Numbered from the stretch's first letter, positions 3,001-48,495 are shown. The stretch: DNA of 64,000 bases from Prorocentrum cordatum (GCA_963575745.1 CAUYUJ010000004.1:496001-560000), one strand, 5' to 3'. Program-made: numbers and translations. Notes: generated by a model from the letters alone, not told the origin.

Positions 3001-3082
3001 CTTTCTGAATGTTGGCCCAGCTGTGTGGCCCATTCAGCTCGCGGCCGCCCGCCGAAACCTTGTCACTTCGCAAGGGCTTTGA
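2..3082 (+). CDS. J-domain / tyrosine recombinase fusion ORF of a DIRS/PAT/Ngaro-like element; frame open off the left edge
   Basis: The N-terminal LDLLHLERGATTDRVNAQFRRMGWACHPDRDKSIEASRKWRALCDAKAFL is a J-domain with HPD (242-250). The C-terminal ~330 aa carry phage-integrase-like motifs: SVRPGELATARRSDL (R at 2501), PALR, WRDRW, TERYLH (Y at 2897). There is no stop in this frame between position 2 and 83. Confidence 0.8.
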   Translation, partial: AARPGTPKGDAHPVSLLSEANGSAPASLGGLLGRPSVTTQTRHRQDRAAKLVAALDLLHLERGATTDRVNAQFRRMGWACHPDRDKSIEASRKWRALCDAKAFLLGPGRDVTGPDAPASGGATRRALGRGLLAAGRRDDANRSRGVATRDSALDASLGARLRGMPGERRSAPGASPDAEPSAVASCSDPGSRAAPRCTVQTPAMPTAAMRRTQARPEADLGAARTAAAVLPPFRASTLPPLPGCRADAHSVAPRASSAPALLAGRSLGAAAMLRATRERTASAATAGAAHHRAVLPWGHSAERSEVSPAPSFADSCCAGQRADSCAAQLTASRGDQLTDLQPSQLTDSRTDQLADSRADQIADSRAEGLADARTDQLADAFTRSDSRADPLTGLALRTSRVVGPTATVARRVRDERRALARFRASVDVLDAALTEVEFGRGAEAWGPSAGELAELLQTTLAELERQKAALRIARSRTAECVRGSASASGFSGGGAAAAAAGAPPRAPATAGSATFAAQAKERADKHTASYRDVVEARAHSGAQASHPRKRRGVGRPCSAAPVTPRTAISCDERSRSAAPAATRSAAFSETLCAVDRRRREHSPGLRPLILDGTDRQPEAAPSTGEVVEAPRAEQRGRTSRRKRRRVRASAGAAATTPANPSGQEPPASAFVAGRQDWPASLEPALPEGASEALGVKVESHSRRVPSCGDQRTRSLKAFDVWCAEHTGVALATWARSGILLGRALATFGVWLYDAGFPRLVLVNAIRGAQALQPHWRGFLTEAWDVAERWIPSKPPCPLPPLPRALLRAMVALCLAWDWPDMATLLLAGFTMSVRPGELATARRSDLTLPIDRRESTGDALLSISVPEARGSGGERQHARCSDRAVVRMMELVFRDLSPTDPLLTFGQSGFRTRWLDLLSALGVPLARAPSGFDLSPALRFRTDISDGINRVFWRDRWRLASSTERYLHDAAASAVLPSLAEAARDRVSYLAEASDLLVASFLNVGPAVWPIQLAAARRNLVTSQGL
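961..1170 (+). repeat. 24-bp coding tandem repeat (DSRADQLA-like units) in the linker of the J/YR ORF
   Basis: Repeated gactcccgc(g/a)ccgaccagctcgcc units; the translation shows DSRTDQLA DSRADQIA DSRAEGLA DARTDQLA. Confidence 0.85.
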
Positions 3083-3093
3083 GCCTGGGTATG

Positions 3094-3527
3094 GCTGCTG
3101 CGGCCTCCCTTGGCCGCCCGGGTGCCCTCGTTGGACGAGGCCGCCTGAGAGCGTCGCACGGCCCGCCCGCGTAGGCCTGTCCCGCTTTACGGGCCGCCGC
3201 GGGCGCGCGCCGCGCGTTCGCCCTGAGACGACTGCTCACTTGCGCAGCGTGCGGGGATGCTCCTTCTTATCCCCATCGCGCCCGCTGATTGCAGTCGTCT
3301 GCAGCTTCTCGGCCCCCTCCCTCTCTCCTCCCTCCTTCTTCGAAGGCTGACCTGCGGCGCTGCTGCGGCCTCCCTTGGCCGCCCGGGTGCCCTCGTTGGA
3401 CGAGGCCGCCTGAGAGCGTCGCACGGCCCGCCCGCGTAGGCCTGTCCCGCTTTACGGGCCGCCGCGGGCGCGCGCCGCGCGTTCGCCCTGAGACGACTGC
3501 TCACTTGCGCAGCGTGCGGGGATGCTC
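3094..3527 (+). repeat. 169-bp direct repeat pair (3094-3262, 3359-3527) separated by 96 bp; split-direct-repeat 3' terminus
   Basis: Both copies read gctgctgcggcctcccttggccgccc...gcagcgtgcggggatgctc. The first starts 12 bp after the recombinase stop. Confidence 0.9.
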
Positions 3528-3613
3528 ATCCTCCTCATCATCCTACCCATCCTCCTCCTCGCCCTCATAGTCCTCATCCTCACCTCCATATGCCGACAGT
3601 GCCCGTTGCGCGC

Positions 3614-5475
3614 TCACGGCTTGCCGCGACGGCCAGTGAAGTTCGGGTCGCGGCACGTGCCGCAGCCATTCGGCAGGTGGCGGCATTTGCTGCGCCCGAG
3701 TGCCATTTGGCCCCGTTTGGCTGCCGCCTTGCCCTTGGGCTTGGCCTTGGCCTTGGCTTTGGCCTTCCCTTTGCCCTTGGCCTTCGGTTTGGCCGTGCCC
3801 TTGGCCGCCGTCTTGCCCTTGCCAGCGCCTGTCTTGCTCTTGCCCTTGATCGCGCTCTTGCCCTTGCCCTTCTTGCCCTTGCCCTTGCCCTTGCCCTTGC
3901 GAGGCAGCTCGCCTTTCGCGCTGCCCGCAGCCAAGGTCTCGATCGCCTGCAGCACAGCATCCTCGTCTCCGTCTGCTGCTGCAGCAGCATCTTCGTTTGG
4001 CGGCGTTGGCGCTGCTGCAGCAGCATCTGGCGCCGCCGCTGACAATGCTGGCCCAGCTGGCGAATCACCAATCGCGGGGGGACTCGCGGGGGGGCTCGCC
4101 GTGGGCGCCGCAGGGCGGCGCGGGAAGAGCTGCAGCTGCAGCTCGTTGGGCGGCGATGGCGGTGGCGCAAACGCTGCCAGCATTTGCTGCATCGCGGCCG
4201 TCGCGTCCATGGGTTGCATTGGCGCTGCAGGCGGCGCGGAGGGTGACCCCGATGGTGTCCATGGCACAATGGCAGTGCTCGGCTGATGCGGTGGGGCGGC
4301 AGCCCGCAAGCCCTTGTTGGTCAGCCTGAGAGGCACGCGGGCCTTGATGGCGTTGAGACCCGCAGGCCGCTTCAGCGGCGCACGCGTAGCATGAAACCTA
4401 TCATGCTCTATGCGAGGTGGACCTAAAGGACCGAGCTCACCGAAGCACCCAATACATCCAGAACAATCAGCGCTGCAGCGCATGACGGGGTGGCAGCAGC
4501 CTCGTAGATGCGATACCACGTTGGCGAGGTCGCGCGTCACATCGATCGGCGGGCCCGCATCGGCGTACGCCGCGTCGAAGATGTGCTGAGGGAGCTGCCG
4601 AGGATCTGCTGGGAAATTCCAAGTCACTGTCGCCGCTTGCCCCGTCGCGCCCCTGCGGCTCGCCAAGAACTGACCCTGTAAAGGGCGACTCGTCGGGAAA
4701 CCCTAACGCTGACGCGCCGCATCGCATTGGCTGCAGTCAGTGCGATATGATGCGTCTGCGTTAGGCGTTCCCGCCGAATCCCAAACCTTCATCTCCGTCA
4801 CGATCCCGTAGAGCTGCCCAGGGTTTGCGTCTGGAAGATGGGCGCATGCCATCAACGCCGCCAACTCTTTCAGCGTGTTCTCGCTCGGAACCGTCAAGCC
4901 GATGGCACCGCAACGTTTGATCAACGCGCGCACCTTCGCGACGATGCTCTGGCTGGGGTCGCGAAATAAACCCCAGTCCTGCATGGTAAAGTCCACCAGC
5001 CTACGAATCGACGCAGGCATGCTGCAGCATGCTAACATAAGTACATTTGAAAAATGAACATGGTAACATACATAAAGTACAGAACAAACAATTAAACCAT
5101 ACATGTGAATAACACTTCGGCTGTCCGATGTGCAAAGCACGATGGATAGCACCGCCCTGACGCGAGCGTCTGCACGCGCATCTGGAGCGCGGGCGTCGCC
5201 GTGCCCACGCGCGCGGCCAGCGCGGCGCTGAGGCGCGCCTTGTGGCTGTCCGCGAAGCCCGACGCGGTGATTCGATTCTGCAGGGTAGCTGCTTGGGCAG
5301 CCCCGATCGTCCCCAAGTTGTGAAGCTGCAGCTGCACGCTCATGGACAAGGCGGACTGGCTCTGCGCCATCGCGTCGGCGGCGATGACGCCGATCTGCGA
5401 TGCGAAGAAGGCGTCGCAGCTGTCCAGGTTATCCAGGATGTGGTTGATGGGTGTGGCCGCAGCCGCGGCAGACAT
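3614..5475 (-). CDS. Multi-exon hypothetical protein with a Lys/Gly/Ala-rich (H1-like) tail and a C-terminal Cys cluster
   Basis: Coding-like segments in ORFs 5092..5640 (MSAAAAATPINHIL..), 4703..5152 (..QDWGLFRDPSQSIVAKVRALIKRCGAIGLTVPSENTLK..) and 3614..4666 (..KGKGKGKK..AKAKAKPK..LGRSKCRHLPNGCGTCRDPNFTGRRG). Exact splice sites were not resolved. Confidence 0.6.
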
Positions 5476-5789
5476 GATGCCCTCCGCGAGGGCGAGGGGG
5501 TGCGCGGACGCTCCGAGGGGAAGCGCGAGGGAGGGCCTCCCACACTGCGAGAGCTGAAGCACTCGGCTGCTGAGGTGGAAGAGAGGCCACAACAGTACAG
5601 ATGCGCTGCAGCGCAACGATCGCATGCAATTAAGGAACACACGTGAGCGCTGCAGCGCTCAGCAGAAATCATCGTCACAAAGTAACATGAAGCGCTGCAG
5701 CGCTATGCATGCGCACCATGATGGAACGCATGGTAGTGGGCAATAGGGAGAGAGATATAGAGTGATGGAAAGGAGAGGAGGGAGATAAT

Positions 5790-6200
5790 GAGGGACACGG
5801 GGGGGAGGGGGGGGGGGGGGGCGGGGGGAGATGCGAGGAGACACGGGAGGGAAGGACACGAGCGCGGGCGGGCGGGCGGGCAGGACACGGGGGGGGGATG
5901 CATGATCATTTGAGGAACACGGAAGGGACGGTGCGAAAGACACGGAGGGGTGGGAGGGACATGGGAGAAACACGGGGGGGGGGCACGGAAGAGACACGGG
6001 AGGGACACGGGAGTTCGGGGGCGAGCGGGCGGACGGACGCGGAAGCGGTGCGGAGGGACACGGGCGGGAGCGCACGGAAGGCACGTGGAGACACGGAAGG
6101 GGCACGGGAGAGACGCGGGAGAGACACGGGAGACGGATAGGTATACACGGGAGCTCGGGAGCGGGCGGGCGGGCAGACACAGGAGGGACACGGAAGGTGT
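5790..6200. repeat. Degenerate G-rich minisatellite (GACACGGG-based)
   Basis: Many gacacggg/ggcacgga units. Confidence 0.8.
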
Positions 6201-6302
6201 CCGAGGAGGGCGCGGGACGGATTCAGGAGATGCGCGAAGTGTGATCAGGAGCAAATACCGAAGCGATCTGGGAGCCTCGAAGGCAGCTGGGACATCGACA
6301 GA

Positions 6303-6455
6303 GGCGTGTCTGTTCAATAGAGGGGGCTATTGAACAGACACGGGCGTGGCTGTTCAATAGAGGGGGCTATTGAACATGGCATGTTCAATAGAGGGGGCTA
6401 TTGAACAGACACGGGCGTGGCTGTTCAATAGAGGGGGCTATTGAACAGACACGCC
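6303..6455. repeat. Array of four identical hairpins TGTTCAATAG-AGGGGG-CTATTGAACA
   Basis: Cores lie at 6311, 6351, 6382 and 6422. The array ends ggcgtgtctgttcaatag / ctattgaacagacacgcc are mutual reverse complements. Confidence 0.95.
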
Positions 6456-7619
6456 GCTGTCAGACAGCATCACCTCTGCAGAGGGGCACCGACGCTCTCA
6501 GATCGCTTCACCCGAAGCTCCCGTTCGACCTCAGATCAGCCATCCTGATGCCAACATCCAGCACTCCAGCCCACCCCAACGCCCACCCACGCAGTCCCAG
6601 AACACTGTCCACACTGCTGATTTCGAGGTGGGAGTGAAACTAAGAGAGGCGCGAAGTACATCACGCGGCGCTGCTGCAGCAGCGTCGCGACGAGGTTGAC
6701 GATGCCGACACCGCTGTCAACTGCAAAGATTTACGCTCACGGCTCTGCTGCAGCAGCGTCGCGATGGCTCGAGACTGCTGAGGACAAGGCTGATGGGAGC
6801 TGGTGAGGCTGCCAGGAGGCCATGGGGGGAGCTACTCGGCGGCGCAACGAACTGTGCTGAAGGGGGGCAGGGAGAGTGGCGAAGGGCGATGCGATGCGAG
6901 ACTGTTTGCCATCTGAAGTGCCCCAGGACCCCCCCAAGTGCCCCCAAACTTTCCTGGCCAATCCAAGGCCGACCCCTGGCACATCAGCCCATGCAAAAAA
7001 TGTCAGCGGATCAGGATGTGAACGTCGACGATGGCAGATAGATGTGATGAGGATATCGGAGCGCCTTTCTGGGCGACAGCGCGGGCGCACCACGCGATCT
7101 GGCGCACGAAATATAACCTGGCCTAAAACACATGCATGCGTCGGCAGGCTATGCTCGCGAACTGATCCAATCCACCCCCCCATTGCTCCCATTGATCTTA
7201 CATGTTGGGTTGCTACAGCATGTATCCTATCACTATGCGTCGTTGTCCCCCTCGCTCACGGGAGAGTGGATACCCGCTGCAGCGGGCATCCTGTCTACCG
7301 TCTCTCTCCAATGTGTCTTCACTCCACCCCCACGCTGCGTCTCCATCGTCCCCCTCGCATTCCCTATGTATATCACGTCTCCCCCCTGTCTACCTCTACT
7401 ATAGTCCCCCCTCTCCCCCTGTCTACCTCTACTGAGTTACCGTCCCATTCCGTCGCCCATGTAGTGGAATGCTCCGCGGCGGCCCCCCATGCCCCGCGGT
7501 GGCGCGCCGCGGCTCTCATGTGGGCGCTGCAGCGCCGAGGGCGTCTCCGCCTCCGCGGCCTCCGCCTCCGCCGCCGAGCGCCTCCGCCTCCGCGGCCTCA
7601 TCCGCGGCCTCCTCCCTCC

Positions 7620-8267
7620 TCATGAGGCGCCCCTCGGCGCCTGCGCCTCCTCGGCGGCCTCCTCGCCGACGCCGCCGCCCTGGCCGACCCAGACCTCTGC
7701 TGGGCCAGCGTAGTACTCCTCGGCCAGGGCGGCGGCGTCGGCGTACTCGCCCGCCAGCAGCAGCTCGCAGAGCTGCTGCGCCCTGTTGAACCAGCCGCCC
7801 CGCCGCCCTTGCCCTTGCCCTTGCCCTTGGACAAGTTTGCCGCCCTTGCTCTTGTCCTTGCCCTTGCCCTTGCAAGGTGGGCCGCCGCCGTCCTTGTCCT
7901 TGTCCTTGCCCTTGCCCTTGCAAGGTGGGCCGCCGACGTCCTTGTCCTTGTCCTTGCCCTTGCCCTTTCTGCAAGGTGGGCCGCCGACGTCCTTGTCCTT
8001 GTCCTTGCCCTTGCCCAAGGCGCAAGGTGGGCCGCCGACGTTGTCCTTGTCCTTGTCCTTGCCCTTGCCCAAGGCGCGGCCGACGCTGCCATGCGGGGCG
8101 GCGCGCGACGGCCGCGGCCGCGCCTTGGCCGCGGCCGCGGCCGCGAGCAGCGCGCCTGGCGGCGGCGCCGCAGGCGGCGTCGGCCGCATGCGGCCGACGC
8201 CGCCGTCGTCGCTGTCGAACTCCTCGAAGTCCTCGTCGTAGCTGTCGAACTCCTCGAGCGACGCCAT
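7620..8267 (-). CDS. Small protein: acidic N-terminus, KGKGKDKDKDVGGPPC repeats, C-terminal helical motif
   Basis: ATG at 8267 (MASLEEFDSYDEDFEEF), then four to five tandem Lys/Asp/Gly repeats, then GGWFNRAQQLCELLLAGEYADAAALAEEYYAG. Confidence 0.6.
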   Translation of the reverse strand: MASLEEFDSYDEDFEEFDSDDGGVGRMRPTPPAAPPPGALLAAAAAAKARPRPSRAAPHGSVGRALGKGKDKDKDNVGGPPCALGKGKDKDKDVGGPPCRKGKGKDKDKDVGGPPCKGKGKDKDKDGGGPPCKGKGKDKSKGGKLVQGQGQGQGRRGGWFNRAQQLCELLLAGEYADAAALAEEYYAGPAEVWVGQGGGVGEEAAEEAQAPRGAS

Positions 8268-8300
8268 CGCTGCAGCGAGGCTGCAGCTCGCCAAGCTGCA

Positions 8301-8424
8301 TGATGGGCTTGGTTTCCACCACCAGTACCATAAGTTGGAGGGAGAGGTCCTCCTCCTCCTCTTCTTTCTCCTCCTCCTCCTTCTCCAACATATGGTATAG
8401 TGGTGGTGGAAACCAGTCCCATCA
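8301..8424. mobile_element. 124-bp TG...CA miniature element with ~40-bp imperfect TIRs and a 5-bp target-site duplication CTGCA
   Basis: Left end tgatgggcttggtttccaccaccagtaccataagttggag versus right-end reverse complement tgatgggactggtttccaccaccactataccatatgttggag. CTGCA occurs at 8296-8300 and 8425-8429. Confidence 0.75.
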
Positions 8425-8679
8425 CTGCAGCTGAAGCTGCACTCGGGCGCGCGGGCGCGCGACGCTGCAGCGCGCGAAGCTGCAGCTGCAGCTGCGCGGA
8501 ACAAAAACAGCGGCGGTGCCAACGACGAATACGATGGCGACGACGCTGACGACGATGGACCCCTGCTAACCAATCGACTGACCCCCCAAAGTAACATCAC
8601 CCCGCAAAGTAACATCACCCCCAACTGAACCTCCGAAGGCCAACGACTGGATTGACCTCCCCAGGGCTGCCCCCTCAGG

Positions 8680-9200
8680 ATAGGAGGAGGAGGGGGAGGA
8701 GGATGAGGGGGAGGAGGAGGATTGGAGGGAGAGGAGGAGGGGGGGGAGGAGGGGGGGCAGGAGAAGGAGGAGGAGGAGGAGGAGGAGGACACTGATGAGG
8801 AGGAGAAGAAGGAGAGGGAGGAGGAGGAGAAGGAGGAGGAGAAGGAGGAGTAGGAGAATGAGAGGGAGGATGAGGAGGAGGAGGAGGAGGAGGAGGAGGA
8901 GGAGGAGGGAGTATGCGGAGGCAGGAATAGGCAGAAGGATCGGGGGGGCGGGGCATGGGTGCCAACTGGTTGTCTTCCTCCTCCTCCTCCTCGTCATACT
9001 CCTCGTCCTCGGCCTCCTTCTCCTCCTCCTCCTCATCATCATCATCATCCTGCTCCCCCTTCCCCTGCTCCGAGGTGCTGGCAGCGAGCGGTGGGAACCT
9101 GTGAAAATGAGGGCGTTCCAGAACGTCGTCCTCAATGTCGTCGTCCTCCTGATCACCCTCCTCCTCCTCATCATCATCCTCCCTCCACCTTCTTCTCCTG
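8680..9200. repeat. (GGA)n / (CCT)n / (CAT)n microsatellite tracts
   Basis: Direct reading. Confidence 0.9.
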
Positions 9201-9332
9201 CATGCACTGCTCTGAATTACGTCGTCTTTAACGCCGTCGTCGTTGTCTCTGTCGCCGTCGCCGCCGTCGCGATGCTGTATCCGACTGAAACAGTGGTGCT
9301 GCAGCACTGACCGCGCGCGCGCCGCGCGCCCG

Positions 9333-9686
9333 TCACTTCCGCGGCTTCTTCGCGACGTGGTATTGGACTGCCAGCGCAAACGCTGCCTCGCGGTCCCCGC
9401 GCTGAAGCGCTTCCCGAATCATGTCGCACACAAGCTTCCACATGCCAACCTTGGTATCAGCATCGCGCTTGCGCGCGGCTGCAGCCGCGCGCGGGGCTGG
9501 CACATCACTGGCGGCTGCAGCCGCGGTCCTCGTCGACGTCGGAGGCGGCGGTGGCGGCGGCGGCGGCGGAGGAGGGGGAGTAGCCGCATATGTCGCATCC
9601 GATGCAGCGGACTTCGCCTTCGGCGGCGGCACTGGCTCCGAGGGAAGCCGCCATGGCGGCGTCGCTGCACTCATGTTGGCAGCCAT
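9333..9686 (-). CDS. Small Pro/Ala-rich protein with a C-terminal helical motif related to that of 7620-8267
   Basis: MAANMSAATPPWRLP...GMWKLVCDMIREALQRGDREAAFALAVQYH. Confidence 0.5.
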   Translation of the reverse strand: MAANMSAATPPWRLPSEPVPPPKAKSAASDATYAATPPPPPPPPPPPPPTSTRTAAAAASDVPAPRAAAAARKRDADTKVGMWKLVCDMIREALQRGDREAAFALAVQYHVAKKPRK

Positions 9687-10196
9687 TGATGTTCTGATCA
9701 CAGGTGGCTGCGAACCACATGCAATAACATAAAGCGAACATGCGGGCTGCAAGCGCGATCGAAGCGCTACATCAACACGCCAGACACACAAAATGTAAGT
9801 CAGCGCTGCAGCGCGACGCAAAAATCTGATATCGGCACGCCAGACACCCGAACGTAAATCAGCGCTGCAGCACGATGGACTCCAAACACACGAAACGTAA
9901 GTCAGCGCTGCAGCGCCGTGAGGTCACACATCGACGGCGGCAACGCGTGAGAGGCACACTTGATCGTAGTGTCGTCGTGCTGCAGCACGCTTGATCATAC
10001 CAACGATTCGCAATGACACCAACAGTAGCGAACATTGGGGGGATCCACCAACAATCCGCAATTATTATCCCAATCCTCCTCTTCCTTCTCCTCCTCGCCC
10101 TCGTCCTCGTGCTCGTCCTCCTCGCTGCCATTCTCAATCGCACTGCCGACCGTGATCGCACGCCCCAGCGATGCGGTCGACCGAGCGCGCCGCAGC

Positions 10197-10961
10197 TCAG
10201 TCCGAGTCGGCCTCCTCCTCCTCCGCATCGCCCTCCGCCTCCGCTTCCATCTCCTGGAGCTCATCCGCTTCGCAATCCTTGAGTTCGGCGGTGCACCACT
10301 TCGCCGCGGCCGCTTCAGCGTCATCCTTGCTGCAGCCGCGGTTTGTGCGGAACAAGGCCGTCCTGCTGCAACCGCAGTCTGTGCGGACGGCCCGCCAAGC
10401 TTGGAGCCGCTGCACCCAATAGATGCGGGTGCCGCAAGGAACGTCGGTCTCGTGGCGCCGCGGGCGCTTCAGCACCGTGCTCGCCTCTGCCGCCTCCGCC
10501 GCCTCCTGAAGCAATTTGGCCTTGATGTACTCTACGCCCTTCTCGTGCAGCACCACCTGCAGCTTGTCCCTCCCCCCCCTATGAGGTGGGGGAATGACAA
10601 TCTGCAGCTCTGTTGCCTCAGTATCGCCAAACGGCGGCAGCTGCACTGTCTTGAAGCACTTGTCCACTGGAACCTGGCGACTGGCGCGGCCGGACCGCGT
10701 GGTCGGGCGGCGGCCTGGCTCCGCTGCAGCGAAGAGCGTCGTCGGCGCCGTTGGCCCCGACGACGCGGTGCGCTGATTTTTCAGCCACGTTAGGAACATC
10801 GTGCCTCGCAAGCCCTGAGCCTTGCCGCACACCCACTTGCTCCAACCTGCGGTGGTCACGGTGATACACTCGCGGTCTCCGATGACCTCGACGGCCGCGA
10901 CCAGCTCGCGCCCCGTACGGTTGTCGTGCAACACGACGCAGTCGCGCTTGATCGTCGTCAT
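10197..10961 (-). CDS. 254-aa intronless protein with a C-terminal AP2-like DNA-binding domain and an acidic tail
   Basis: Complex, globular-looking composition. KRPRR (NLS-like) is followed by RIYWVQRLQAWRAVRTD..RTALFRT..SKDDAEAAAAKW, matching the three-strand-plus-helix AP2 pattern (GVxW..xWxA..xF..xAxxxA). Confidence 0.6.
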   Translation of the reverse strand: MTTIKRDCVVLHDNRTGRELVAAVEVIGDRECITVTTAGWSKWVCGKAQGLRGTMFLTWLKNQRTASSGPTAPTTLFAAAEPGRRPTTRSGRASRQVPVDKCFKTVQLPPFGDTEATELQIVIPPPHRGGRDKLQVVLHEKGVEYIKAKLLQEAAEAAEASTVLKRPRRHETDVPCGTRIYWVQRLQAWRAVRTDCGCSRTALFRTNRGCSKDDAEAAAAKWCTAELKDCEADELQEMEAEAEGDAEEEEADSD

Positions 10962-11458
10962 CGCGCGCGCGGCGCGCCGAGGCTGCAGCCCGAGCGCGGT
11001 CGCACTTCAGCGCCAAAATTGCTGCGATGGAGTGATGAGGCAACATGTGCGCGGACGAGGTGCTCATGATGAGGTGCGCTGCAGCGCATGTGAAAGATGA
11101 AGCGAAGAGCAACGATCACATCGAGCACAACAGTGATGACGAAGCCGCTGCAGCGGCATGTCTGTGGGAAAGGCTGATGTCAGCACCAATATTGTACAGT
11201 CGCTGCAGCGACGATGCTGGCGCAACGAATCGTTCCGCGCGCTGCAGCGCCGCGGCAAGTATCGCACTTCGCACCAACCCGCACACTGTTTACACCAATC
11301 GGAGGGCCACGCTCGGTGCCGTCATGTGCGCTCGCCGCTCCTTAAGCCCCCTCATCCTCCTCCCTATGCCAAACCTTACCCTGCCTCCTCCTCCTCCTCC
11401 TCCGCATCACCCCTCCCTCCTGCCTCATCCTCCCGCGTGGTCCCTCTATATCGCCAGC

Positions 11459-14366
11459 TCAGGCCGTCCTGAGCTTCTTGGCTGGCCGCGGCTGCAGCCG
11501 CGGCCACGGCTTCACCACCAGGAAGTCGCCCGCGGACAGGGCGCAAGTGTTATGCATCTGGGGCACCCCCACCTGCACCTTGTTGACGCCTGTCCCGAAC
11601 GTCACGGTCTCCTTTCGGAGCTCCATGTTGGGCTCTGAGTCGGACTTTGCCACCACCCAGAAGGGGCTGACAAAGGCGTCGGGGCCCCGCGACCCCTCAG
11701 CGGGGGGCCCTGCGAACTGCGGGCCCACGAAGAACTCGTAGAGGCCAACCTTCCCCAACGAGATGCTCTCCGCAACGCAGCCCGTGCTGACCCGCGTGGA
11801 CGAGGCTGAAATGCGACCACTCCCACCGCGTGGAGCTACATGGCGCGCAGTCGGTAACATCACTGACCTCGTCGCTACGGCCTGACGTGCCCCGAAATCC
11901 TCGCTACCTCGTGCTCAGCGCAGCGCTGCAGCGCGGCGTCGTCGGAGGGGGGCGCGGACGATTGCGGAAGCACAAGTCTGACGAGCTCACCCACTTTGAA
12001 CGCTCGCTTGCAGCGCACGGCAGGTGGGTCCTGCAGGATCTCCAAGTGCAAAATGTTCGCCTGGTACTTCAGCGCTTGGAGCCGCAGCGCCATGTTGCAT
12101 GCCCCCTTGAACGCGTCCATCGCCCAACCCTCGTGGGCTGGCGGCAAGTGCTCCTTCGTGAACGGCAACTGCTCCTGCACCCTGGACGTCAACTTGTAAT
12201 TCTCGAGCAATATGTTTACTTCAATCCGCCCGCTCGGCTAACTGCTCCGTGCGCTGCAGCGCATCGACCAACCCATTGCAACTTAAGTACAGGAAATACA
12301 ATATCGCAGTTACTACCTCCTCCTCCCCCCTCCCTGCTCCCTGCACGGGCGGCGGGGTGGCTGCAGCCACGCAATGGAGATCTCTTCGCCCACCAGGTCG
12401 CCGTGCAACTTCTTCTGAGCGGTGATCCCATTCTCCGAGATGGAGAGCACCTCGAAGACGTCATCCACCTCCTTCTTCTGGACGATGTGCTTCCCCACGT
12501 CGAACCCTGCACGCCGCATGCGGAAGACGTTGCTCTTCAACTCAGCGGCCGACGACGCTGCCGCGCGCGGCGCGTCTGCATCGGCGCTCGCTGGGAACTC
12601 GGGTGCGCCATCGCCTTGCTTGTCGGTCTGCACCGCCTTGCCGAACTCGATCCCCAAGCTCTTCATCTGCAGCTGGGCTGGCTCCCCGAGCTCATGGAGG
12701 AAGACCTCTCTGGAGGGTCGCTGCAGCGACATTGAATGGCGAAAAGCAGGGAGGGAGGGAAACAAGGAGCACACGAAAGGTGGCGTGAGAAGATACCTGT
12801 GCTATATCTGCTACGCATCCGAAAGTGCGGTCTCCTGGCGCTCGCTTCTTCACCAGGTACATGGCACAGCGGACATCCAACTTTGTGATGTGCAAGAAGC
12901 CCTGCTCCGCTCCGATATCCAACCTCTTCACGAGCGACCTTGCGTCGGCCATGAGGTTGTCGGCCGCAGCCACGTCCGCCTTGCGGGACGCGACGTGGAC
13001 GATCTCGTTTGCCTTGATCCGCCCATCGCTTCAGCGATTGCGTTTGGGAATAAAGCAATGTAACGGTGCGTGTGTGTGTGTGGGGAGGGGGGAGGGGTGG
13101 GTACGCAGTTCTAACAATGCAGCGCAATGCATAGATGCGCTGCAGCGCATGTCACTACAAGGGGGCGCCGACAAGCTTATGGATGGTCCTGCACATGCTA
13201 TCCACCACGTGCTCGCCTGAATAGTTGGCCTTCACGAGCGCCGCTACGACATACGGGTACGACTCCTGGTGCTTCCCCCATTTAATCGAATTCAACTTGC
13301 GCCAAAATTCAGAGCCGCACATCAAAGTTTGCCCCGAGACGTCCACATTCGTGAAGGTCTTGAGGGCTTCATCTATTTCACGGAGAAGTTCTCCGTTTTG
13401 TGGCCCGAGCTCAACAAACTTGCACAAGTCAGCGATCCACGCCTTGCAAGGTGGGTTCGCGTGGCCCGCTTGCTCGGCGATGTCGCGCCAATCGGGCTTG
13501 CTGGAACCCTCAGCGAGGCTGTGTGCCAAGAGCATCCGCCCACCTGCCTGCAGCAAGCGCCGAGCCGATCAAGTGCTGCAGCACTGTAAGATATAATGCT
13601 CCTGCTCCTCGTTCTCACCTCCTCCCCAACGCGCTCCCACTCATCACCCTCCTCGTGCATCATCCTGGTCCTTACTACATACCGTTATATACTATAGTGG
13701 GGATAGGCTGCAGCCTGACCGAATGATCTCGGTCTCGTGAACCGCCTCCCTGACGTCGGCGTCCAAAGCCCTCTGCACGAAGTTCTTGGGGCCCTTCACT
13801 TTGGCCACCGCGTGCTTGATGATCAACCACGTCAGGCCCTTTTTGACTGCCGTCGCAAGTTGCGGATGCAACGCGCACAGCTTTTCGGAGTCGATGTTGT
13901 CCCGAGAGTCTGCCAGCGCCTTCACTGTGGTCGGCGCCTTGGCCAGCACGCAGCGGAGGAAGACGTTCGTGTGGGAGCCGCCCACTGACGTATACCGCAA
14001 TGAGTCCAGCGGGGGGCACCGACCCCCGCTGAGCCGCGAAAGGCGGTCGTTCGCCATCGCGGTCTCTTCCAACTGCGCCCCCTGCGGGGCCTCGAAGGCA
14101 GTGGCTGCAGCCGTCTTGGCCAAGACGAAGCCCTGGGCGCAAATCTTCGCGCCTAAATTGTGAGCCCGCGCAGGGTTCACTAACGAACCGCTGCGGTTCC
14201 GAATGTCGATGCCCATCTGGTTCGGTGGGACCTGCTGGTAATACGCTAGCCCCTCCGCCAGCAGGAACTCCTTCAGTTGATCCCACCCCGATGCCAACCT
14301 CCCCGAGGAATTGCTTTCCTCGATGTACTGCAAGATCTGCTCCTCCTGACGCGCCTGCAGCGCCAT
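11459..14366 (-). CDS. Multi-exon (~6 exons) protein: N-terminal ParB/Srx-like domain, C-terminal divergent SET-like domain
   Basis: Exon 1 from ATG 14366 contains VPPNQMGIDIRNRSG, HNLGAKICAQGF and YTSVGGSHTNVFLR. Further coding segments lie in ORFs 13155..13556, 12692..12973, 12313..12774, 11875..12210 (VRCKRAFKVGELV) and 11459..11863 (FWVVAKSDSEPNMEL..VPQMHNTCALSAGDFLVV). Confidence 0.6.
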
Positions 14367-15069
14367 GCCAGCGCTATATATAGCGCCGAATGCAACGCGC
14401 GAGCCCGCGGGCGCGACGGCGGATGCGGCGCGCGGCCGCAGCTTGAGACAAGCTGTCGCGCGGCGTGCGCGTGAACATCGACTTGCATGGACATGCAACT
14501 TGCGAGCAAAAATGTTGATCTGGGCTGCAGCCCGAGGCCCATGAAGCACGAGCGCGCACGCGCTGCAGCGCGATGCGACATCACGACGACAACCATTTTT
14601 TTGCGCTGCAGCGCAAAGTAACATACGTGCTATCAAATTTGGAGCGCTGCAGCGCTCAATGCGACCATTGAAAAACAACGAATACAACAAAACATAATTG
14701 ACATGTGCATTCAAATTCCTTGCAAACGGAGCTGGGCGAAAATGAAGATCCGAACAACGCGCAACTAGAAAACATGCATTTAACTCAACATTCAGCGCTG
14801 CAGCGCTTCATCTTCATGTTCATATAAATCCATGTTCATGTTCATATAAATGTTCATATAAATCCGAAGGCAGCGCTTCATGTTCATATAAATCCGAAGG
14901 CAGCGCTGCAGCGCTTCTCATATTTAAAGCAAAAATCCAGGACACCGACTCCAAATCAAAATGCAAAATTTGTAGCGCTGCAGCGCTCAACGAACAAACT
15001 CAGCTCTTTCAAGACGTGGATTTACCTTTTTTCCCTGTGCATGGCCCTTGGATAACAAGTGCAATGTAA

Positions 15070-15296
15070 CCGCTAAGTCACTTATAACCTACTTAGCAAA
15101 CTAGCTATAAGCGGTTATAAGTGGTTAGCTAAGTGCGCTAAGCACTTAGCTAACTGGTTATAAGTGGATAGCTAAGTACTTACTAAGTCATTACTAAGTG
15201 GGCCACTTAGTAATGACTGAGTAAGTACTTAGCTAAGTCCGCTAACTACTTACTAAGTACTTAACTTAGCGTAGTAAGTATGTTAAGTACTTAGCA
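15070..15296. repeat. AT-rich CTAAG/CTTAG palindromic segment
   Basis: Dense taagt/actta words. Perfect 16-bp arms at 15186-15218 (AGTCATTACTAAGTGG-G-CCACTTAGTAATGACT). Confidence 0.85.
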
Positions 15297-15314
15297 ACCG
15301 CCGCGGCCATCCAA

Positions 15315-16150
15315 GCAGGGGAAGGCCCGGTTGGTTTGGGAAGGCCCGGTCGGTTCGGGATGGCCCAGTGGTTTGGGGGGACGATGGTCTGGGAAGACCC
15401 AGTTGTTCCGGGAAGACCCGGGGTTTCTGGCGTGGGAAGACCCGGTCGGTTCGGGAAGATACAGGGGCTTGGTTTGGGAAGGCCCGCTCGGTTCGGGAAA
15501 ACGCGGCCGGTTCGCCGAAGCCCAGGGCCTCGGTCAGCCAAGAAACATTTGGTTCGGGTGCAACCGTCCGAACGAAGGCGAGAACGGGGCGGGGGCGAAA
15601 ACGGAAACGAGGACCAAACGAAGGCGAAACGAAAGCGAGATCAAGGCAAAAACGCGAGCGGAAATCAAAGCGAAACGAAAGTGAAACGAATCAAAGGGAA
15701 AGAGGCGGGCACGACCGCGAAACGAAGGCAAAACGGAGGCGAGAGCGATGGCGAGACCATGAGCGGAGACGACGCGAAACGAATGCGAAATGAGGGCGAG
15801 GCGAAAGCGGGACACGAGGACGGACACAAAGACGCAGACGAGACGACGGCGAGAACGATGGCGAAACCGAGGGCGAGACGAAACGAAGACGATGCGAAGA
15901 CGAAAACGAAAGCGAATGCGGGATCGGAAACGAAGGCGAAACAACGCGGACACGAAGGCGAACACGAAGGCAATAGTGAGACCGGAAGAACAGCGAAACG
16001 AAGGCGATAATGAAGGCGAGAACAAGAGCGGACACGAGGGCGAAACGAAACGAAGGCGACGGCGAAAACGAAAAACGAGAGCGGAGACGAAGGCGAGAAC
16101 GAGGGCGGAAACGAAAGCGAAACACCAACGAAACGAAGCGAGAACGAAGC
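15315..16150. repeat. Two adjacent degenerate satellites: ggtt(t/c)gggaag(a/g)cccggtc (~15315-15510) and acgaaggcgaaacga (~15570-16150)
   Basis: Direct reading. Confidence 0.8.
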
Positions 16151-17459
16151 GAATTTCTCGTCGTGGCGGTCCTCCTGACAGCGTTCGTCCTGGTGTGCCT
16201 CCTCCTCCTCCTCCTCCCCTACCCCCCCCCCAGCCGCGTGCCTGGTGGAAGACGTCGCCCCCCCCCCCCCCGCGCGCCCCCTCGCCGAGCCGCGCCCAGA
16301 TGAAACCTGCGGGGGCGAACCAAATGCCATGAATCTCGCAATTGCCCCCCGGATCAGCGCGCCCAACCGCGGCCTCGAGAAGCCGTCTGCGCCCGCCGGC
16401 CCCCGTCGTCGCGCCCCCTTTACGCGCGGGCTGGCCTGCCTCGCGCTCCGCTCAGAGGAGCGCAAAAGACATAAAAAATGTGAACGAGACAGAGAGAGAA
16501 ATGATAAAGAAGTGCACTAGAAGGATGATAGCGCAGAGCACGGATATTGAATCTAGCGAGTGACATTAACGGATGGCAGCAGGCGAAGCTGTTTTCTTCT
16601 GTCCTGTGGCTGGTTGGCCAGCCGTGTAAACGCACGCACGCGCAGGCGCGGCCTGCTTTGTGCCGCTGAGACCACCACCGAACGCCGATGCAACCCAGGC
16701 TGCGTCAGCGACGACAGCCTCGCAGCAGCCTGCGCGCGCGTTTCCGAGCAGGGCGCCGGGCCCCCGAGCAACACACGCTGATAATGCTGGGTGGGCGGGT
16801 CGACCTGCGCGGGCGCGCGTCGGGCCAGATTGTCACCCGACCGGTCGATGTTGCGCTGGGCCAGGTCCGCCACCTGGACGTCCAAGTGTATATCCGCGCT
16901 ACCCTGACGCGCGCCGCTCGCGGCGCCCGCGCCCGCCCCCTCCGCGCGCCCTGGCGGCCCGTCACTGGCGAGCGGCGCGCGGGCGGCTCTGGTCAGCGCA
17001 GCAGACGCAGCCCCGCCGCCGAGCTCGGCGAGCCGGTCGCTGGCGCCGTCGGCGACAGCGCCCACAGCCCAACCGCCGAAATATATGGTGCGAGCGTAGC
17101 GCACTGAAGCAGGCGGCACTGACGATGCTGACACTCCTCGGCCGCCAGCGCTACCGAAGCCGCCTGGTCCGCGCCTGGGTGACTCGCGCGAACGTCTGGG
17201 ACCGCGAGCCCGCTCGTCGACTGCCTGCTGCAACCTTGGAATGGCTCCCGAACCCGTTTGCAGAACCACTCCCGGCGCGCGCGGCCCGCAGATTTTCCCG
17301 CAGCCGCGCGGAGGCCGACCGCGCAATGGGCAGGACCGCAGCCTATCATTCATCGCCGCGCGGGCGCCCCCGTCGCAAGCGCGAAACGCAGTGGGGGGGG
17401 GGCCAAAACAGCGGCGGGAAATCTGTCACAACAGCACCTTGGGCGTGAGCGGCGTTCGC

Positions 17460-48395: not shown

Positions 48396-48495
48396 NNNNN
48401 NNNNNNNNNNNNNNNNNNNNNNNNNNNNNNNNNNNNNNNNNNNNNNNNNNNNNNNNNNNNNNNNNNNNNNNNNNNNNNNNNNNNNNNNNNNNNNN
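48396..48495. other. Assembly gap (100 N)
   Basis: Run of n. Confidence 1.

What the first reader, a model, noticed from the sequence alone, without database searches (positions are those of the whole stretch)
3970..14990. Dozens of GCTGCAGC-centred palindromes with different but self-complementary arms, confined to the cassette
Seen in sequence: GCGCTGCAGCGC at about 4470, 5603, 5647, 5692, 7524, 9803, 9905, 11076, 11239, 11923, 12251, 13137, 14560, 14603, 14644, 14795, 14903 and 14975. Variants have other arms that are still perfect palindromes: TGGCCGCGGCTGCAGCCGCGGCCA (11483-11506, 24 bp), GCGCGCGGCTGCAGCCGCGCGC (9471-9492), GTCGCTGCAGCGAC (11199, 12717), GCCGCTGCAGCGGC (11144), GTGCTGCAGCAC (9296, 9977, 13573). 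I saw essentially none of the long forms beyond 15 kb. They fall mostly in putative introns and intergenic DNA. Inference: varying arms with retained symmetry suggest a process that builds or repairs palindromes around CTGCAG, or selection for dimeric binding sites (e.g. parS-like sites for the ParB-like protein, or AP2 sites). Analogues are cyanobacterial HIP1 and the Neurospora mitochondrial PstI palindromes.
Basis: partly seen in the sequence, partly recalled or inferred. Interest (0 to 1): 0.8.

Follow-up and report, generated by a model that had tools for sequence, protein, structure and literature searches.

The report
Covarying CTGCAG palindromes mark selfish element
An 11-kb stretch of a marine protist's DNA carries about fifty short mirror-image DNA words built around CTGCAG; they appear to be the signature of an undescribed family of selfish genetic elements whose main gene looks like a bacterial plasmid-partition (ParB) protein fused to a histone-methylase-like (SET) domain.

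Summary
The cassette (3970-14990) holds 60 CTGCAG sites, and 48 of them are perfect palindromes of 10-24 bp. The other 53 kb hold 25 sites, none longer than 8 bp. Markov models of order 5 and 7, trained on the cassette itself, never reach these counts. The arms truly covary. Beyond the core GCTGCAGC, three flanking pairs stay complementary far above what column frequencies predict; the fifth flanking position is at chance. The unit is therefore a 14-bp dyad, NNNG-CTGCAG-CNNN.

The cassette is a multi-gene, intron-bearing element. Its largest gene (11462-14366, minus strand, six exons) belongs to a large unnamed family: 1781 cluster representatives, none of the 17 scanned has a Pfam domain. The predicted fold is a ParB/Srx-like N-terminal part plus a C-terminal SET-like domain. 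A relative from a metagenome (27-39% protein identity) also carries varied-arm CTGCAG palindromes, including the canonical 12-mer in tandem units upstream of the gene.

My best reading, at about 0.4, is that these are element-wide dyad sites for the element's own ParB-like protein. KorB operators, sopC and EBV FR are analogues. The arm symmetry would reflect a hairpin stage. RNA hairpins, template-switch mutation and methylation-linked origins are not excluded. The AP2 claim is unsupported.

The parts
3970..14990 (.). Palindrome-rich cassette: 60 CTGCAG sites, 48 of them perfect palindromes of 10-24 bp. The modal unit is 14 bp, NNNG-CTGCAG-CNNN.
   Evidence: counts; Markov controls; arm covariation.
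11462..14366 (-). Gene A, the hallmark gene of the element family. It has six exons whose aligned parts are 14366-13722, 13514-13176, 12988-12797, 12702-12400, 12225-11980 and 11815-11468. The predicted protein has a ParB/Srx-like N-terminal part, a helical middle and a SET-like C-terminal domain.
   Evidence: A family HMM built from alignment A1 hits six colinear minus-strand pieces that cover HMM positions 14-745. Relatives: 1781 representatives. Folds. All five intron gaps hold at least one CTGCAG palindrome.
14525..14991 (.). Array upstream of gene A, in A+T-richer DNA. It holds 7 palindromes, with CTGCAG starting at 14525, 14563, 14606, 14647, 14798, 14906 and 14978. Spacing is 43 and 41 bp in one triplet. 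CATATAAAT-containing tandem units lie among them.
   Evidence: L009 has two 56-bp tandem units with the same 12-mer in the equivalent place. Other strains carry a 53-64-bp indel at 14816-14881.
11076..11253 (.). Array of 4 palindromes between the end of gene A and the start of gene B (CTGCAG at 11079, 11148, 11203, 11242). A further one at 10983 lies just upstream of gene B's ATG.
9803..9993 (.). Array between gene B and the next minus-strand gene. Palindromes at 9806, 9908 and 9980, plus an 8-bp form at 9865, sit inside degenerate repeat units of about 50 bp.
5603..5708 (.). Array of 3 palindromes (5606, 5650, 5695; spacing 44 and 45 bp) upstream of a minus-strand gene whose coding starts near 5470.
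11483..11506 (-). 24-bp perfect palindrome inside the last codons of gene A. The L009 homologue has a 10-bp CTGCAG palindrome at the same family-profile position (about 735-742).
   Evidence: the coordinate mapping is my own arithmetic.
12717..12730 (-). 14-bp palindrome whose central CTGCAG is an in-frame candidate 3' splice site of gene A intron 3. This intron position is shared with L009.
   Evidence: Splicing is inferred; no RNA data.
10200..10961 (-).
   Evidence: ORF. No Pfam hit, no solved-structure hit. The only relative found is a near-identical fragment.
15050..15300 (.). Boundary block rich in TAAGT/ACTTA and TTAGCTAA words, with hairpins having 13- and 16-bp stems. It is unique in the window. 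Look-alike blocks lie upstream of gene A in L009 and in L027.
   Evidence: Whether it is the true element end is not settled.

Best explanation
The palindromes are the cis-acting signature of an undescribed eukaryotic selfish or mobile element, here about 11-12 kb with at least five minus-strand genes.

Most likely mechanism:
- The invariant 8-bp dyad GCTGCAGC (canonical form GCGCTGCAGCGC) is the recognition or loading site of an element-encoded dimeric DNA-binding protein. The best candidate is gene A, a ParB-like protein with a C-terminal SET-like domain.
- Sites are arrayed upstream of each gene and scattered through the element wherever coding allows: introns, UTRs, and Ala or Leu-Gln codons. 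The whole element can then be bound or coated for partition or tethering, for control of its own transcription, or for SET-mediated chromatin marking in cis.
- The three covarying arm pairs show that at some stage the site exists or arises as an intrastrand hairpin or cruciform. That stage is either the form that is recognised, or the product of template switching at the self-complementary core.

Shown: the enrichment, its confinement to the cassette, the covariation, the association with the gene A family, and the ParB-like and SET-like folds.

Inferred: that gene A binds the sites, what binding achieves, and why the arms are symmetric.
For: - Enrichment and confinement: 48 palindromes inside against 0 outside, above Markov order-5 and order-7 controls.
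- Conserved core with covarying arms.
- The trait persists across deep divergence. L009's gene A is 27-39% identical, yet among its sites not used to select the locus, 7 of 16 CTGCAG sites are palindromes of at least 10 bp. They prefer different arms, and covariation is seen at flank position 2 (8/16 against 3.9) and position 3 (9/16 against 4.4). Control loci chosen by the same pattern give 25 of 410.
- Positions are conserved between the window and L009: the canonical 12-mer in tandem units upstream of gene A, a palindrome at the C-terminal codons, and one in the shared intron.
- Gene A has a ParB/Srx-like fold with a helical region that aligns to pNOB8 ParB-N. KorB, which binds dispersed palindromic operators, is among the top structural neighbours.
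- Density is threefold higher in non-coding than in coding DNA, and coding copies fall in Ala or Leu-Gln runs. That fits a DNA-level, element-wide motif under coding constraint.
- There is no sense-strand G.U tolerance and no strand-specific flank (small n).
- A separate lower-GC repeat family ends in two 18-bp versions of the palindrome beside a similar TAAGT-type terminus. Non-coding ends that keep the motif suggest a cis role.
Against: - A dimer that reads two half-sites does not by itself predict covarying arms. Known parS and KorB operators are conserved in sequence, not merely symmetric.
- Binding was not tested and could not be; complex prediction takes no DNA and was unavailable.
- The ParB-like Z scores are moderate (4.7-7.7), Foldseek was not significant, and no Pfam ParB model matches.
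- A 14-bp palindrome is short for cruciform extrusion in duplex DNA (general knowledge).
- In four other strains or runs, the two SNPs seen in arms (12369, 13585) are one-sided, so no rapid re-symmetrisation is visible.
- Other hairpins with different centres are also about 2.9-fold enriched in the cassette, including a 32-bp palindrome at 8173. One CTGCAG-specific binder does not explain that.
- Only three DNA contexts of the family could be examined, and two of them were found through the palindrome pattern itself.
Confidence: 0.4

Rival explanations
1. RNA-level stem-loops. The sites act in the element's transcripts as 5-bp stems closed on a UGCA loop. They could guide splicing, since several sit at or near intron ends and CTGCAG is a good 3' splice site. 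They could also guide trans-splicing or 3'-end processing between genes, or RNA-RNA pairing through the self-complementary core.
For: - Stem covariation with an invariant loop is the classic signature of a functional hairpin.
- All 5 intron gaps of gene A hold at least one palindrome: 7 in about 830 bp, against 3 in about 2240 bp of aligned exon.
- In-frame GT..AG solutions place the acceptor on the palindrome centre in gene A intron 3, and possibly in the intron at 5022.
- Arrays lie between consecutive same-strand genes.
- An earlier, unchecked note reports another transposon of this assembly studded with small hairpins.
Against: - An RNA loop need not be self-complementary, yet the centre is invariably a perfect DNA dyad.
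- There is no excess of G.U-compatible mismatches on the sense strand: of 15 single-mismatch 14-mers, 9 are other mismatches, 4 are G.T on the plus strand and 2 on the minus strand. Flanks show no strand-specific bias.
- Seven copies lie upstream of the first gene, where a transcript is not expected.
- No RNA data could be obtained.
Confidence: 0.2
2. Mutational by-product. An 8-bp self-complementary core, kept for some other reason, nucleates intrastrand template switching during replication or repair. This copies one flank onto the other and so builds perfect palindromes with locally derived arms. On this reading the arms themselves have no function.
For: - Arms are diverse, with 14 distinct symmetric 4-nt arms, as if taken from local sequence.
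- Complementarity decays outward: 51, 52, 44, 35 and 20 of 60 at flank positions 1 to 5.
- The cassette is enriched in palindromes and hairpins with other centres as well: 2.74 against 0.95 per kb. It includes a 32-bp perfect palindrome inside a coding region.
- SNPs in arms are one-sided, as expected for neutral decay after birth.
Against: - It does not explain why the core is 17-fold denser than in flanking DNA, nor why the core and its positions persist in a relative with 27-39% protein identity.
- The sharp fall to chance after the fourth flank position suggests a unit of defined size, not open-ended extension.
- The flanking 53 kb of the same genome, replicated by the same machinery, shows none.
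Confidence: 0.15
3. A methylation-linked iterated palindrome, HIP1-like. The core, which overlaps CTGCAG, two GCWGC words and GCGC in the arms, is the target of a DNA methyltransferase associated with the element. Its abundance is driven by modification-dependent repair or by selection.
For: The 3' end of a C-5 cytosine methylase gene lies directly upstream of the gene A region in L009 (Pfam PF00145, E 1.7e-07, 31.4 bits against a cut-off of 22). The motif is made of restriction-type palindromes (seen directly in the sequence).
Against: - No methylase gene was found in the window: Pfam on six-frame ORFs and tblastn with L009 ORFs.
- A methylase target does not predict covarying arms.
- Whether the L009 methylase belongs to the element is unknown.
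Confidence: 0.08
4. Binding sites for a host transcription factor, used by transposons as promoter or enhancer modules.
For: Arrays sit upstream of each gene. An unrelated low-GC retrotransposon family (L022 and relatives) carries an array of 11-14 GCTGCAGCGC words upstream of its gag gene.
Against: - The 53 kb of flanking host DNA holds no long forms.
- Many copies lie in introns and coding DNA.
- Covarying arms remain unexplained.
Confidence: 0.08
5. Chance or a composition artefact of GC-rich, Ala-rich coding DNA.
For: A few copies lie in GCTGCAGC-type Ala or Leu-Gln codon runs, for example 3979, 4015, 4130, 4136, 9479 and 9515.
Against: The counts exceed every one of 200 order-5 and order-7 Markov simulations. 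37 of 48 are non-coding. None occur in the other 53 kb, which have similar GC.
Confidence: 0.01

Closest known systems
KorB operators (OB) of plasmid RK2 and ParB-parS / SopB-sopC centromeres (recalled from general knowledge; KorB structure 8qa8 is a top structural neighbour)
   Same: Short dyad-symmetric sites occur on the replicon that encodes a ParB-family protein. Some lie in promoter regions and some inside genes. Some form arrays with spacing of about 43 bp, as in sopC; the triplets here are spaced 41-45 bp.
   Different: This is a eukaryotic, intron-bearing element with about 50 sites in 11 kb. Only the 8-bp core is fixed, and the arms covary instead of being conserved. The protein carries a SET-like domain and matches no Pfam ParB model. 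Binding is untested.
Episome-maintenance repeats of eukaryotic DNA viruses (EBV FR/DS sites for EBNA1, papillomavirus E2 sites; recalled)
   Same: Arrays of palindromic sites for a dimeric, element-encoded protein inside a eukaryotic nucleus.
   Different: No viral genes were recognised here, there are no relatives in IMG/VR, and the sites are spread through genes and introns.
HIP1 (GCGATCGC) of cyanobacteria (recalled)
   Same: An 8-bp GC-rich palindrome greatly over-represented in coding and non-coding DNA, often extended by a few symmetric bases. A link to methyltransferases has been proposed.
   Different: HIP1 is genome-wide and prokaryotic. Here the motif is confined to one element, and no methylase lies in the window.
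REP/BIME elements with RAYT transposases (recalled)
   Same: Short hairpin-capable repeats with variable but paired stems, clustered in intergenic DNA, and tied to a dedicated protein.
   Different: REPs are longer, imperfect, have a conserved GTAG head and are bacterial. No HUH/RAYT gene was found by Pfam. The palindromes here are perfect, including the loop.
PstI palindromes of Neurospora mitochondrial DNA (recalled)
   Same: CTGCAG-containing GC-rich palindromes scattered in non-coding DNA and occasionally in coding DNA.
   Different: Those carry two PstI sites flanked by C and G runs, and are mitochondrial. Here there is a single central site with variable arms in nuclear-type, intron-bearing genes. 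Only two places have adjacent double sites (4130/4136 and 8480/8486).
Introner elements (Micromonas, Aureococcus, dinoflagellates; passages of PMC7789003 read)
   Same: Hairpin-capable sequence associated with intron ends in marine protists.
   Different: Introners are whole repeated introns whose two ends pair with each other. Here the intron gaps share only the 12-16-nt palindrome and a short low-complexity run.

Membership tests
ParB/Srx superfamily (gene A, N-terminal part) | ParB/Srx fold of the N-terminal domain | tested here: met
   Model of the window's own exon-1 domain has pLDDT 92. The top 8 VIA-align rows are all ParB/Srx members: PadC Z 6.8 (rmsd 3.3, 109 aligned), KorB Z 6.7, pNOB8 ParB-N Z 5.9, sulfiredoxin Z 5.7, SerK, Atu1540, SbnI and Srx. 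Unrelated rows score 3.4 or less. The Z values are moderate, and Foldseek was not significant.
ParB/Srx superfamily (gene A, N-terminal part) | Sequence membership (Pfam ParBc or related models) | tested here: not met
   No Pfam family at E <= 0.01 for the window exons, for L009, or for any of 17 of 17 full-length relatives scanned. No solved-structure sequence match at E <= 0.1.
ParB/Srx superfamily (gene A, N-terminal part) | Helix-turn-helix DNA-binding domain after the N domain, and dimerisation | tested here: inconclusive
   pNOB8 ParB-N (N domain plus HTH) aligns over 210 residues of model residues 39-385, with Z 7.7 and rmsd 5.1.
parS / KorB-operator-type sites | Dyad-symmetric site on the same replicon as the ParB-family gene | tested here: met
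   48 dyads in the cassette that encodes gene A. The same association is seen in L009 and in L027/L048.
parS / KorB-operator-type sites | Half-site sequence conserved because it is read base by base | tested here: not met
   Beyond the 8-bp core the arms vary (14 distinct symmetric 4-nt arms) and covary.
parS / KorB-operator-type sites | Direct binding by the cognate protein | not testable with these tools
   Needs EMSA, DAP-seq or ChIP.
SET-domain methyltransferases (gene A, C-terminal part) | SET/PR fold | tested here: met
   Model residues about 570-730: Z up to 10.4 (rmsd 2.8, 114 aligned). 25 chains score Z >= 8; the 26 listed rows at Z >= 8 are all SET or PR domains. Foldseek gave weak hits to the same fold, E 0.014-0.09.
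SET-domain methyltransferases (gene A, C-terminal part) | Catalytic and SAM-binding sequence motifs; Pfam SET | tested here: inconclusive
   No Pfam SET hit. The family consensus shows conserved PFW, ANM, VP...N and G..L but no obvious canonical motifs. The canonical motifs are recalled, not aligned.
AP2/ERF DNA-binding domain (gene B) | AP2 domain detectable by profile or by similarity to solved AP2 domains | tested here: not met
   No Pfam hit for window gene B or for L009 gene B. No AP2 chain appears among solved-structure hits at E <= 5. The fold was not predicted.
HIP1-type highly iterated palindromes | Genome-wide over-representation | tested here: not met
   0 long forms in the other 53 kb of the window. 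The whole genome is not held.
HIP1-type highly iterated palindromes | Associated site-specific DNA methyltransferase | tested here: inconclusive
   A C-5 methylase fragment lies next to L009's gene A region. None is found in the window.
REP/RAYT | HUH (Y1) transposase gene and imperfect 20-40-nt REP with a conserved head | tested here: not met
   No Pfam transposase among the cassette's six-frame ORFs of at least 70 aa. The units are perfect dyads of 10-24 bp.
Introner elements | The whole intron is a copy of a repeated element with terminal inverted repeats | tested here: not met
   The intron gaps of gene A and the 5019-5115 gap share only the 12-16-nt palindrome and an 11-13-nt low-complexity run.
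Replitrons / Helitron-type HUH transposons | Rep HUH endonuclease with HUH and GYxxK motifs | tested here: not met
   Passages of PMC10288648 were read. Gene A folds as ParB-like plus SET-like, not as a Rep. No Rep was found by Pfam.

The most novel reading that the evidence does not exclude
A previously unrecognised class of eukaryotic selfish DNA element runs on bacterial-plasmid logic. It encodes a ParB-type DNA clamp fused to a SET-type methyltransferase and scatters about fifty hairpin-capable loading sites over its own body. The element could then coat itself and write its own chromatin state, or tether and partition itself, inside a protist nucleus. The covarying arms would show that loading uses an extruded hairpin or cruciform form of the site.
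Probability: 0.22. Interest if true: 0.9.

Novelty: new variant of a known kind. Interest (0 to 1): 0.72.

Why it matters
Short, over-represented palindromes (HIP1, REP, PstI palindromes, parS or operator sites) are known mainly from prokaryotes and organelles, and their origin is often disputed. Here a eukaryotic element offers a clean, bounded case: 48 palindromes against 0 in the flanks, a fixed core with covarying arms, a candidate cognate protein, and a relative that kept the trait at 27-39% protein identity.

It also exposes a large protein family, with 1781 cluster representatives, no Pfam domain in the 17 members scanned and no informative name in the clusters looked up. The family joins a ParB-like module to a SET-like module. 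If the protein binds the sites, this would be an element that targets a chromatin-modifying or partition activity to itself. That would give a direct handle on how transposons or episomes manage their own state in marine protists, and a test bed for separating selection from template-switch mutation in the making of palindromes.

Tried and rejected
- No whole genome is held for the window, so genome-wide density could not be computed.
- Earlier-findings look-ups near the place, by sequence and by relatives returned nothing.
- Pfam on all six-frame ORFs of at least 70 aa in 3-16.5 kb gave only sub-threshold noise.
- The search for homologous proteins gave nothing for exon 1 among longer proteins, one near-identical fragment for gene B, and nothing longer for P0004. 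All three are weak negatives.
- The ESM Atlas gave only 0.75-score leads to HTH_Tnp_Tc5 clusters, which I did not use.
- IMG/VR viral contigs held no relative of exon 1 or of P0004 and no paired-palindrome pattern.
- Most of the 120 metagenome loci matched by the paired 12-mer pattern are ordinary high-GC DNA with only the two selecting sites.
- Sequencing runs: no RNA holder is listed, so expression and splicing are untested.
- In the four DNA runs laid, no well-supported contig joins across the whole cassette, so no empty site was seen; this proves nothing.
- Foldseek against PDB was not significant for either model.
- Rfam gave no family at gathering score in 3000-16500.
- Profile search of PDB sequences with the N domain gave nothing meaningful.
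- Complex prediction for a gene A homodimer met a full queue and was then declared unavailable.
- The G.U-wobble and flank-asymmetry tests for an RNA role showed no signal with n = 15 and n = 39.
- Literature: the 12-mer occurs in six papers, listed with titles and abstract starts that look unrelated; I did not open them. Searches for palindrome/CTGCAG/transposon/alga, for ParB-like/transposon/dinoflagellate and for ParB/SET domain/selfish/eukaryote surfaced no description of this element or motif (listings only, plus passages of PMC10288648, PMC7789003 and PMC4738411).
- Rejected readings: introner copies, Replitron or REP-type elements (no HUH gene), and tandem 8-bp duplication as a general origin. 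The last fits the 14868-14920 pair of units seen but not arms such as GTCG or GTGG.
Full report
**1. The observation.** The window is 64 kb with about 61% G+C and 100 N at 48396-48495. It holds 85 CTGCAG sites, and 60 of them lie in 3970-14990. Perfect palindromes centred on CTGCAG number 48, 39, 28 and 9 at lengths of at least 10, 12, 14 and 16 bp inside the cassette. There are none outside it; the 25 outside sites are at most 8 bp.

Markov chains trained on the cassette itself already contain the motif's own k-mers. In 200 simulations they gave on average 12.3 (maximum 22) palindromes of at least 10 bp at order 5, and 16.8 (maximum 28) at order 7. For 14 bp or more they gave at most 7-8, against 28 observed.

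**2. The symmetry is real covariation.** If the sites were degenerate copies of one consensus, the two arms would match only as often as the column frequencies allow. Instead:
- At the second position outside the hexamer the left base is C27/T10/G9/A5, and 48 of 51 pairs are complementary against 17.9 expected.
- At the third position 39 of 48 are complementary against 17.5.
- At the fourth position 28 of 39 are complementary against 10.2. Each of these three was reached in 0 of 5000 permutations.
- At the fifth position 9 of 28 are complementary against 6.7, which is chance.

Counting each of the 44 distinct arm pairs once gives the same result. There are 14 different symmetric 4-nt arms. The unit is therefore a 14-bp dyad, NNNG-CTGCAG-CNNN, with an invariant 8-bp core and three covarying pairs. 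As single strands the sites fold into 5-10-bp stems closed on a TGCA loop.

**3. What the cassette is.** No Pfam domain is detectable in any six-frame ORF of at least 70 aa. GC3 periodicity and ORFs nonetheless show a series of minus-strand genes separated by A+T-richer spacers.

The metagenome scan for two 12-mers 20-50 bp apart returned 120 loci. Most are ordinary high-GC DNA. One of them, L009 (6250 bp), has colinear matches to three exons of the cassette's largest gene.

The L009 protein finds 1781 cluster representatives at E <= 0.001, of which 965 are at <= 1e-10. Full-length members have about 720-790 residues. All 17 of 17 members scanned lack Pfam domains. In the six clusters looked up, the only name given is 'hypothetical protein', and the contigs are at most 6.2 kb.

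A profile of 31 members (A1) hits the window in six colinear minus-strand pieces that cover profile positions 14-745. The window's gene A (11462-14366) is therefore complete and split by five introns. The profile also hits L009 in two pieces, broken at the same profile position (427-430) as the window's intron 3. It hits an N-terminal fragment at the edge of L027/L048 as well, two further palindrome-dense loci.

**4. Folds.**
- AlphaFold2 models are confident: pLDDT 83 for P0004 and 92 for the window's own exon-1 domain.
- For the N domain, the eight best VIA-align rows all belong to the ParB/Srx superfamily: PadC Z 6.8, KorB Z 6.7, pNOB8 ParB-N Z 5.9, sulfiredoxin Z 5.7, SerK, Atu1540, SbnI and Srx. 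Unrelated rows score 3.4 or less.
- In the full model, pNOB8 ParB-N aligns over 210 residues (39-385, Z 7.7). Residues of about 570-730 have a SET/PR fold: Z up to 10.4, with 25 chains at Z >= 8.
- Foldseek alone was not significant, and the Z values for the ParB part are moderate.

I therefore call gene A ParB-like and SET-like at the level of fold, not a family member by sequence. The window and L009 versions barely resemble each other (E 0.003 over 69 residues).

**5. The palindromes travel with the family.** I set aside the two 12-mers in L009 that selected the locus. Of its 16 other CTGCAG sites, 7 are palindromes of at least 10 bp. They prefer other arms (T or A at the second flank position), and covariation is again seen: 8/16 against 3.9 at position 2 (61 of 5000 permutations) and 9/16 against 4.4 at position 3 (36 of 5000). 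In the remaining pattern-selected loci only 25 of 410 other CTGCAG sites are such palindromes.

Three positions are shared between the window and L009 (the mapping is my arithmetic):
- The canonical 12-mer lies in tandem units upstream of gene A. L009 has two 56-bp units. The window has seven palindromes in 14525-14991 next to CATATAAAT units.
- A palindrome sits in the last codons of gene A. It is 24 bp in the window and 10 bp in L009, in different reading frames.
- A palindrome lies at the 3' side of the shared intron.

A TAAGT/TTAGCTAA-rich block at 15050-15300 has look-alikes upstream of gene A in L009 and in L027. A separate repeat family with about 44% G+C ends in two 18-bp versions of the palindrome beside a similar terminus, after which the copies diverge.

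**6. Where the sites lie.** On a rough exon map, 11 of 48 palindromes fall in 5207 bp of coding DNA, mostly in Ala or Leu-Gln runs. The other 37 of 48 fall in 5814 bp of non-coding DNA. They form arrays upstream of, or between, consecutive genes, at 5603-5708, 9803-9993, 11076-11253 and 14525-14991. Spacing is 41-45 bp in two triplets.

Every one of the five intron gaps of gene A carries at least one palindrome. The gaps share nothing else, so they are not introner copies. For intron 3, and possibly for the intron at 5022, an in-frame GT..AG solution puts the acceptor on the palindrome's CTGCAG. This is inference, without RNA data.

**7. Other evidence.**
- The stretch is held nearly identically by 8 public runs, labelled as three coded organisms and as marine and other metagenomes.
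- Contigs of four of these runs were laid on it. They cover it with roughly 0.3-0.5% differences.
- The two differences that fall in palindrome arms (12369 and 13585) are one-sided. A 53-64-bp indel lies in the upstream tandem units.
- Single mismatches in 14-mers show no G.U bias on the sense strand.
- Hairpins with other centres are also enriched in the cassette, at 2.74 against 0.95 per kb. They include four copies of a 10-16-bp-stem hairpin at 6305-6447 and a 32-bp perfect palindrome inside a coding region at 8173.
- Unchecked earlier notes on other pieces of the same assembly call it a dinoflagellate rich in transposons, one of them studded with small hairpins. I did not test this.

**8. 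Interpretation.** The fixed dyad core, its confinement to the element, its persistence across deep divergence and its arrays in front of genes point to a cis-acting DNA site read by a dimeric factor of the element. Gene A is the obvious candidate because of its ParB-like architecture. ParB relatives such as KorB use palindromic sites dispersed over their replicon; this last point is recalled, not tested. A DNA-level, element-wide motif under coding constraint also explains why introns and spacers hold most copies.

What simple dimer binding does not explain is the arm covariation, which needs intrastrand pairing. Either the site is used as a hairpin or cruciform, or the self-complementary core promotes template switching that copies one arm onto the other. 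I put about 0.4 on the combined reading of 'binding or loading sites for the element's ParB-like/SET-like protein, with a hairpin stage'. The rivals are:
- RNA stem-loops, about 0.2.
- Palindrome-building mutation with a non-functional arm, about 0.15.
- A methylation-linked HIP-like motif, about 0.08. A C-5 methylase fragment flanks L009, but none is in the window.
- Host-factor enhancer sites, about 0.08.
- Chance, excluded.

**9. Novelty.** Three literature searches and passages of three papers surfaced no description of this motif, of a ParB-SET protein family, or of such an element. Subscription journals and supplements were not seen.

The phenomenon belongs with dispersed short palindromes (HIP1, REP, PstI palindromes, parS or operator sites). 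It differs in three ways: it is restricted to an element in a eukaryote, it has a fixed core with covarying arms, and it is linked to a new protein family. I rate it a new variant of a known kind, with interest 0.72.

Noticed in passing
window 6305-6447: Four tandem copies of a hairpin unit, TGTTCAATAG-AGGGGG-CTATTGAACA, with stems of 10-16 bp and a 6-nt loop. They lie in a non-coding part of the cassette. It is a second, unrelated hairpin type.
   Followed up: partly
window 8173-8204: A 32-bp perfect palindrome centred on GCATGC, inside what looks like coding DNA of the minus-strand gene at 7626-8260. It is far too long for chance.
   Followed up: no
window 14371-14386: A 16-bp palindrome, GCGCTATATATAGCGC, starts 5 nt upstream of gene A's ATG at 14366. 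It has the same GCGC arms as the canonical CTGCAG palindrome but a TATA-like centre.
   Followed up: no
window 5679, 8588, 8606, 14615: The 10-mer AAAGTAACAT recurs four times, only inside the cassette. Two copies are directly beside CTGCAG palindromes.
   Followed up: no
window 15300-16150: A long array of degenerate short tandem repeats (GGGAAGGCCCGG-type, then GAAACGAAGGCGA-type) lies directly right of the TAAGT-rich block. Short similarity to L009 and L027 continues a little past the block, so the element may extend beyond 15.3 kb.
   Followed up: partly
L009 5482-6249 (minus strand): The 3' end of a C-5 cytosine DNA methylase gene (PF00145, E 1.7e-07) lies directly upstream of the gene A region of the related element. 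It is unknown whether it belongs to the element.
   Followed up: partly
L022, L032, L057, L061, L073, L114: Low-GC (0.40-0.51) metagenome contigs carry a dense array of 11-14 GCTGCAGCGC words within about 400 bp. In L022 the array lies upstream of a retrotransposon gag ORF (PF03732, E 4.2e-07). The arms there are often asymmetric.
   Followed up: partly
L004, L005, L020, L025, L056, L063, L068, L070 and about 35 more loci: A multicopy repeat family with about 44% G+C. Its conserved end carries two 18-bp GAAGCGCTGCAGCGCTTC palindromes and nested AAGCGCTT dyads, and stops at ...AACTTAACGCGCCCC, after which the flanks differ between copies.
   Followed up: partly
window 3094-3277 and 3359-3542: A 184-nt direct repeat, 97% identical and 265 bp apart, lies just left of the cassette. 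Several laid contigs break there.
   Followed up: no
window 42466-44238 (plus strand): The only Pfam hit passing its cut-off outside the cassette is Tpt1/KptA RNA 2'-phosphotransferase (E 6.9e-07), inside a 591-aa ORF. Most long ORFs of the window have no Pfam family.
   Followed up: no
window 14860-14925: Two neighbouring repeat units differ by 8 bp...GGCAGCGCTTCAT... against ...GGCAGCGCTGCAGCGCTTCTCAT.... One unit therefore has a half-site and the other the full palindrome. This could be gain by 8-bp duplication or loss by slippage.
   Followed up: partly
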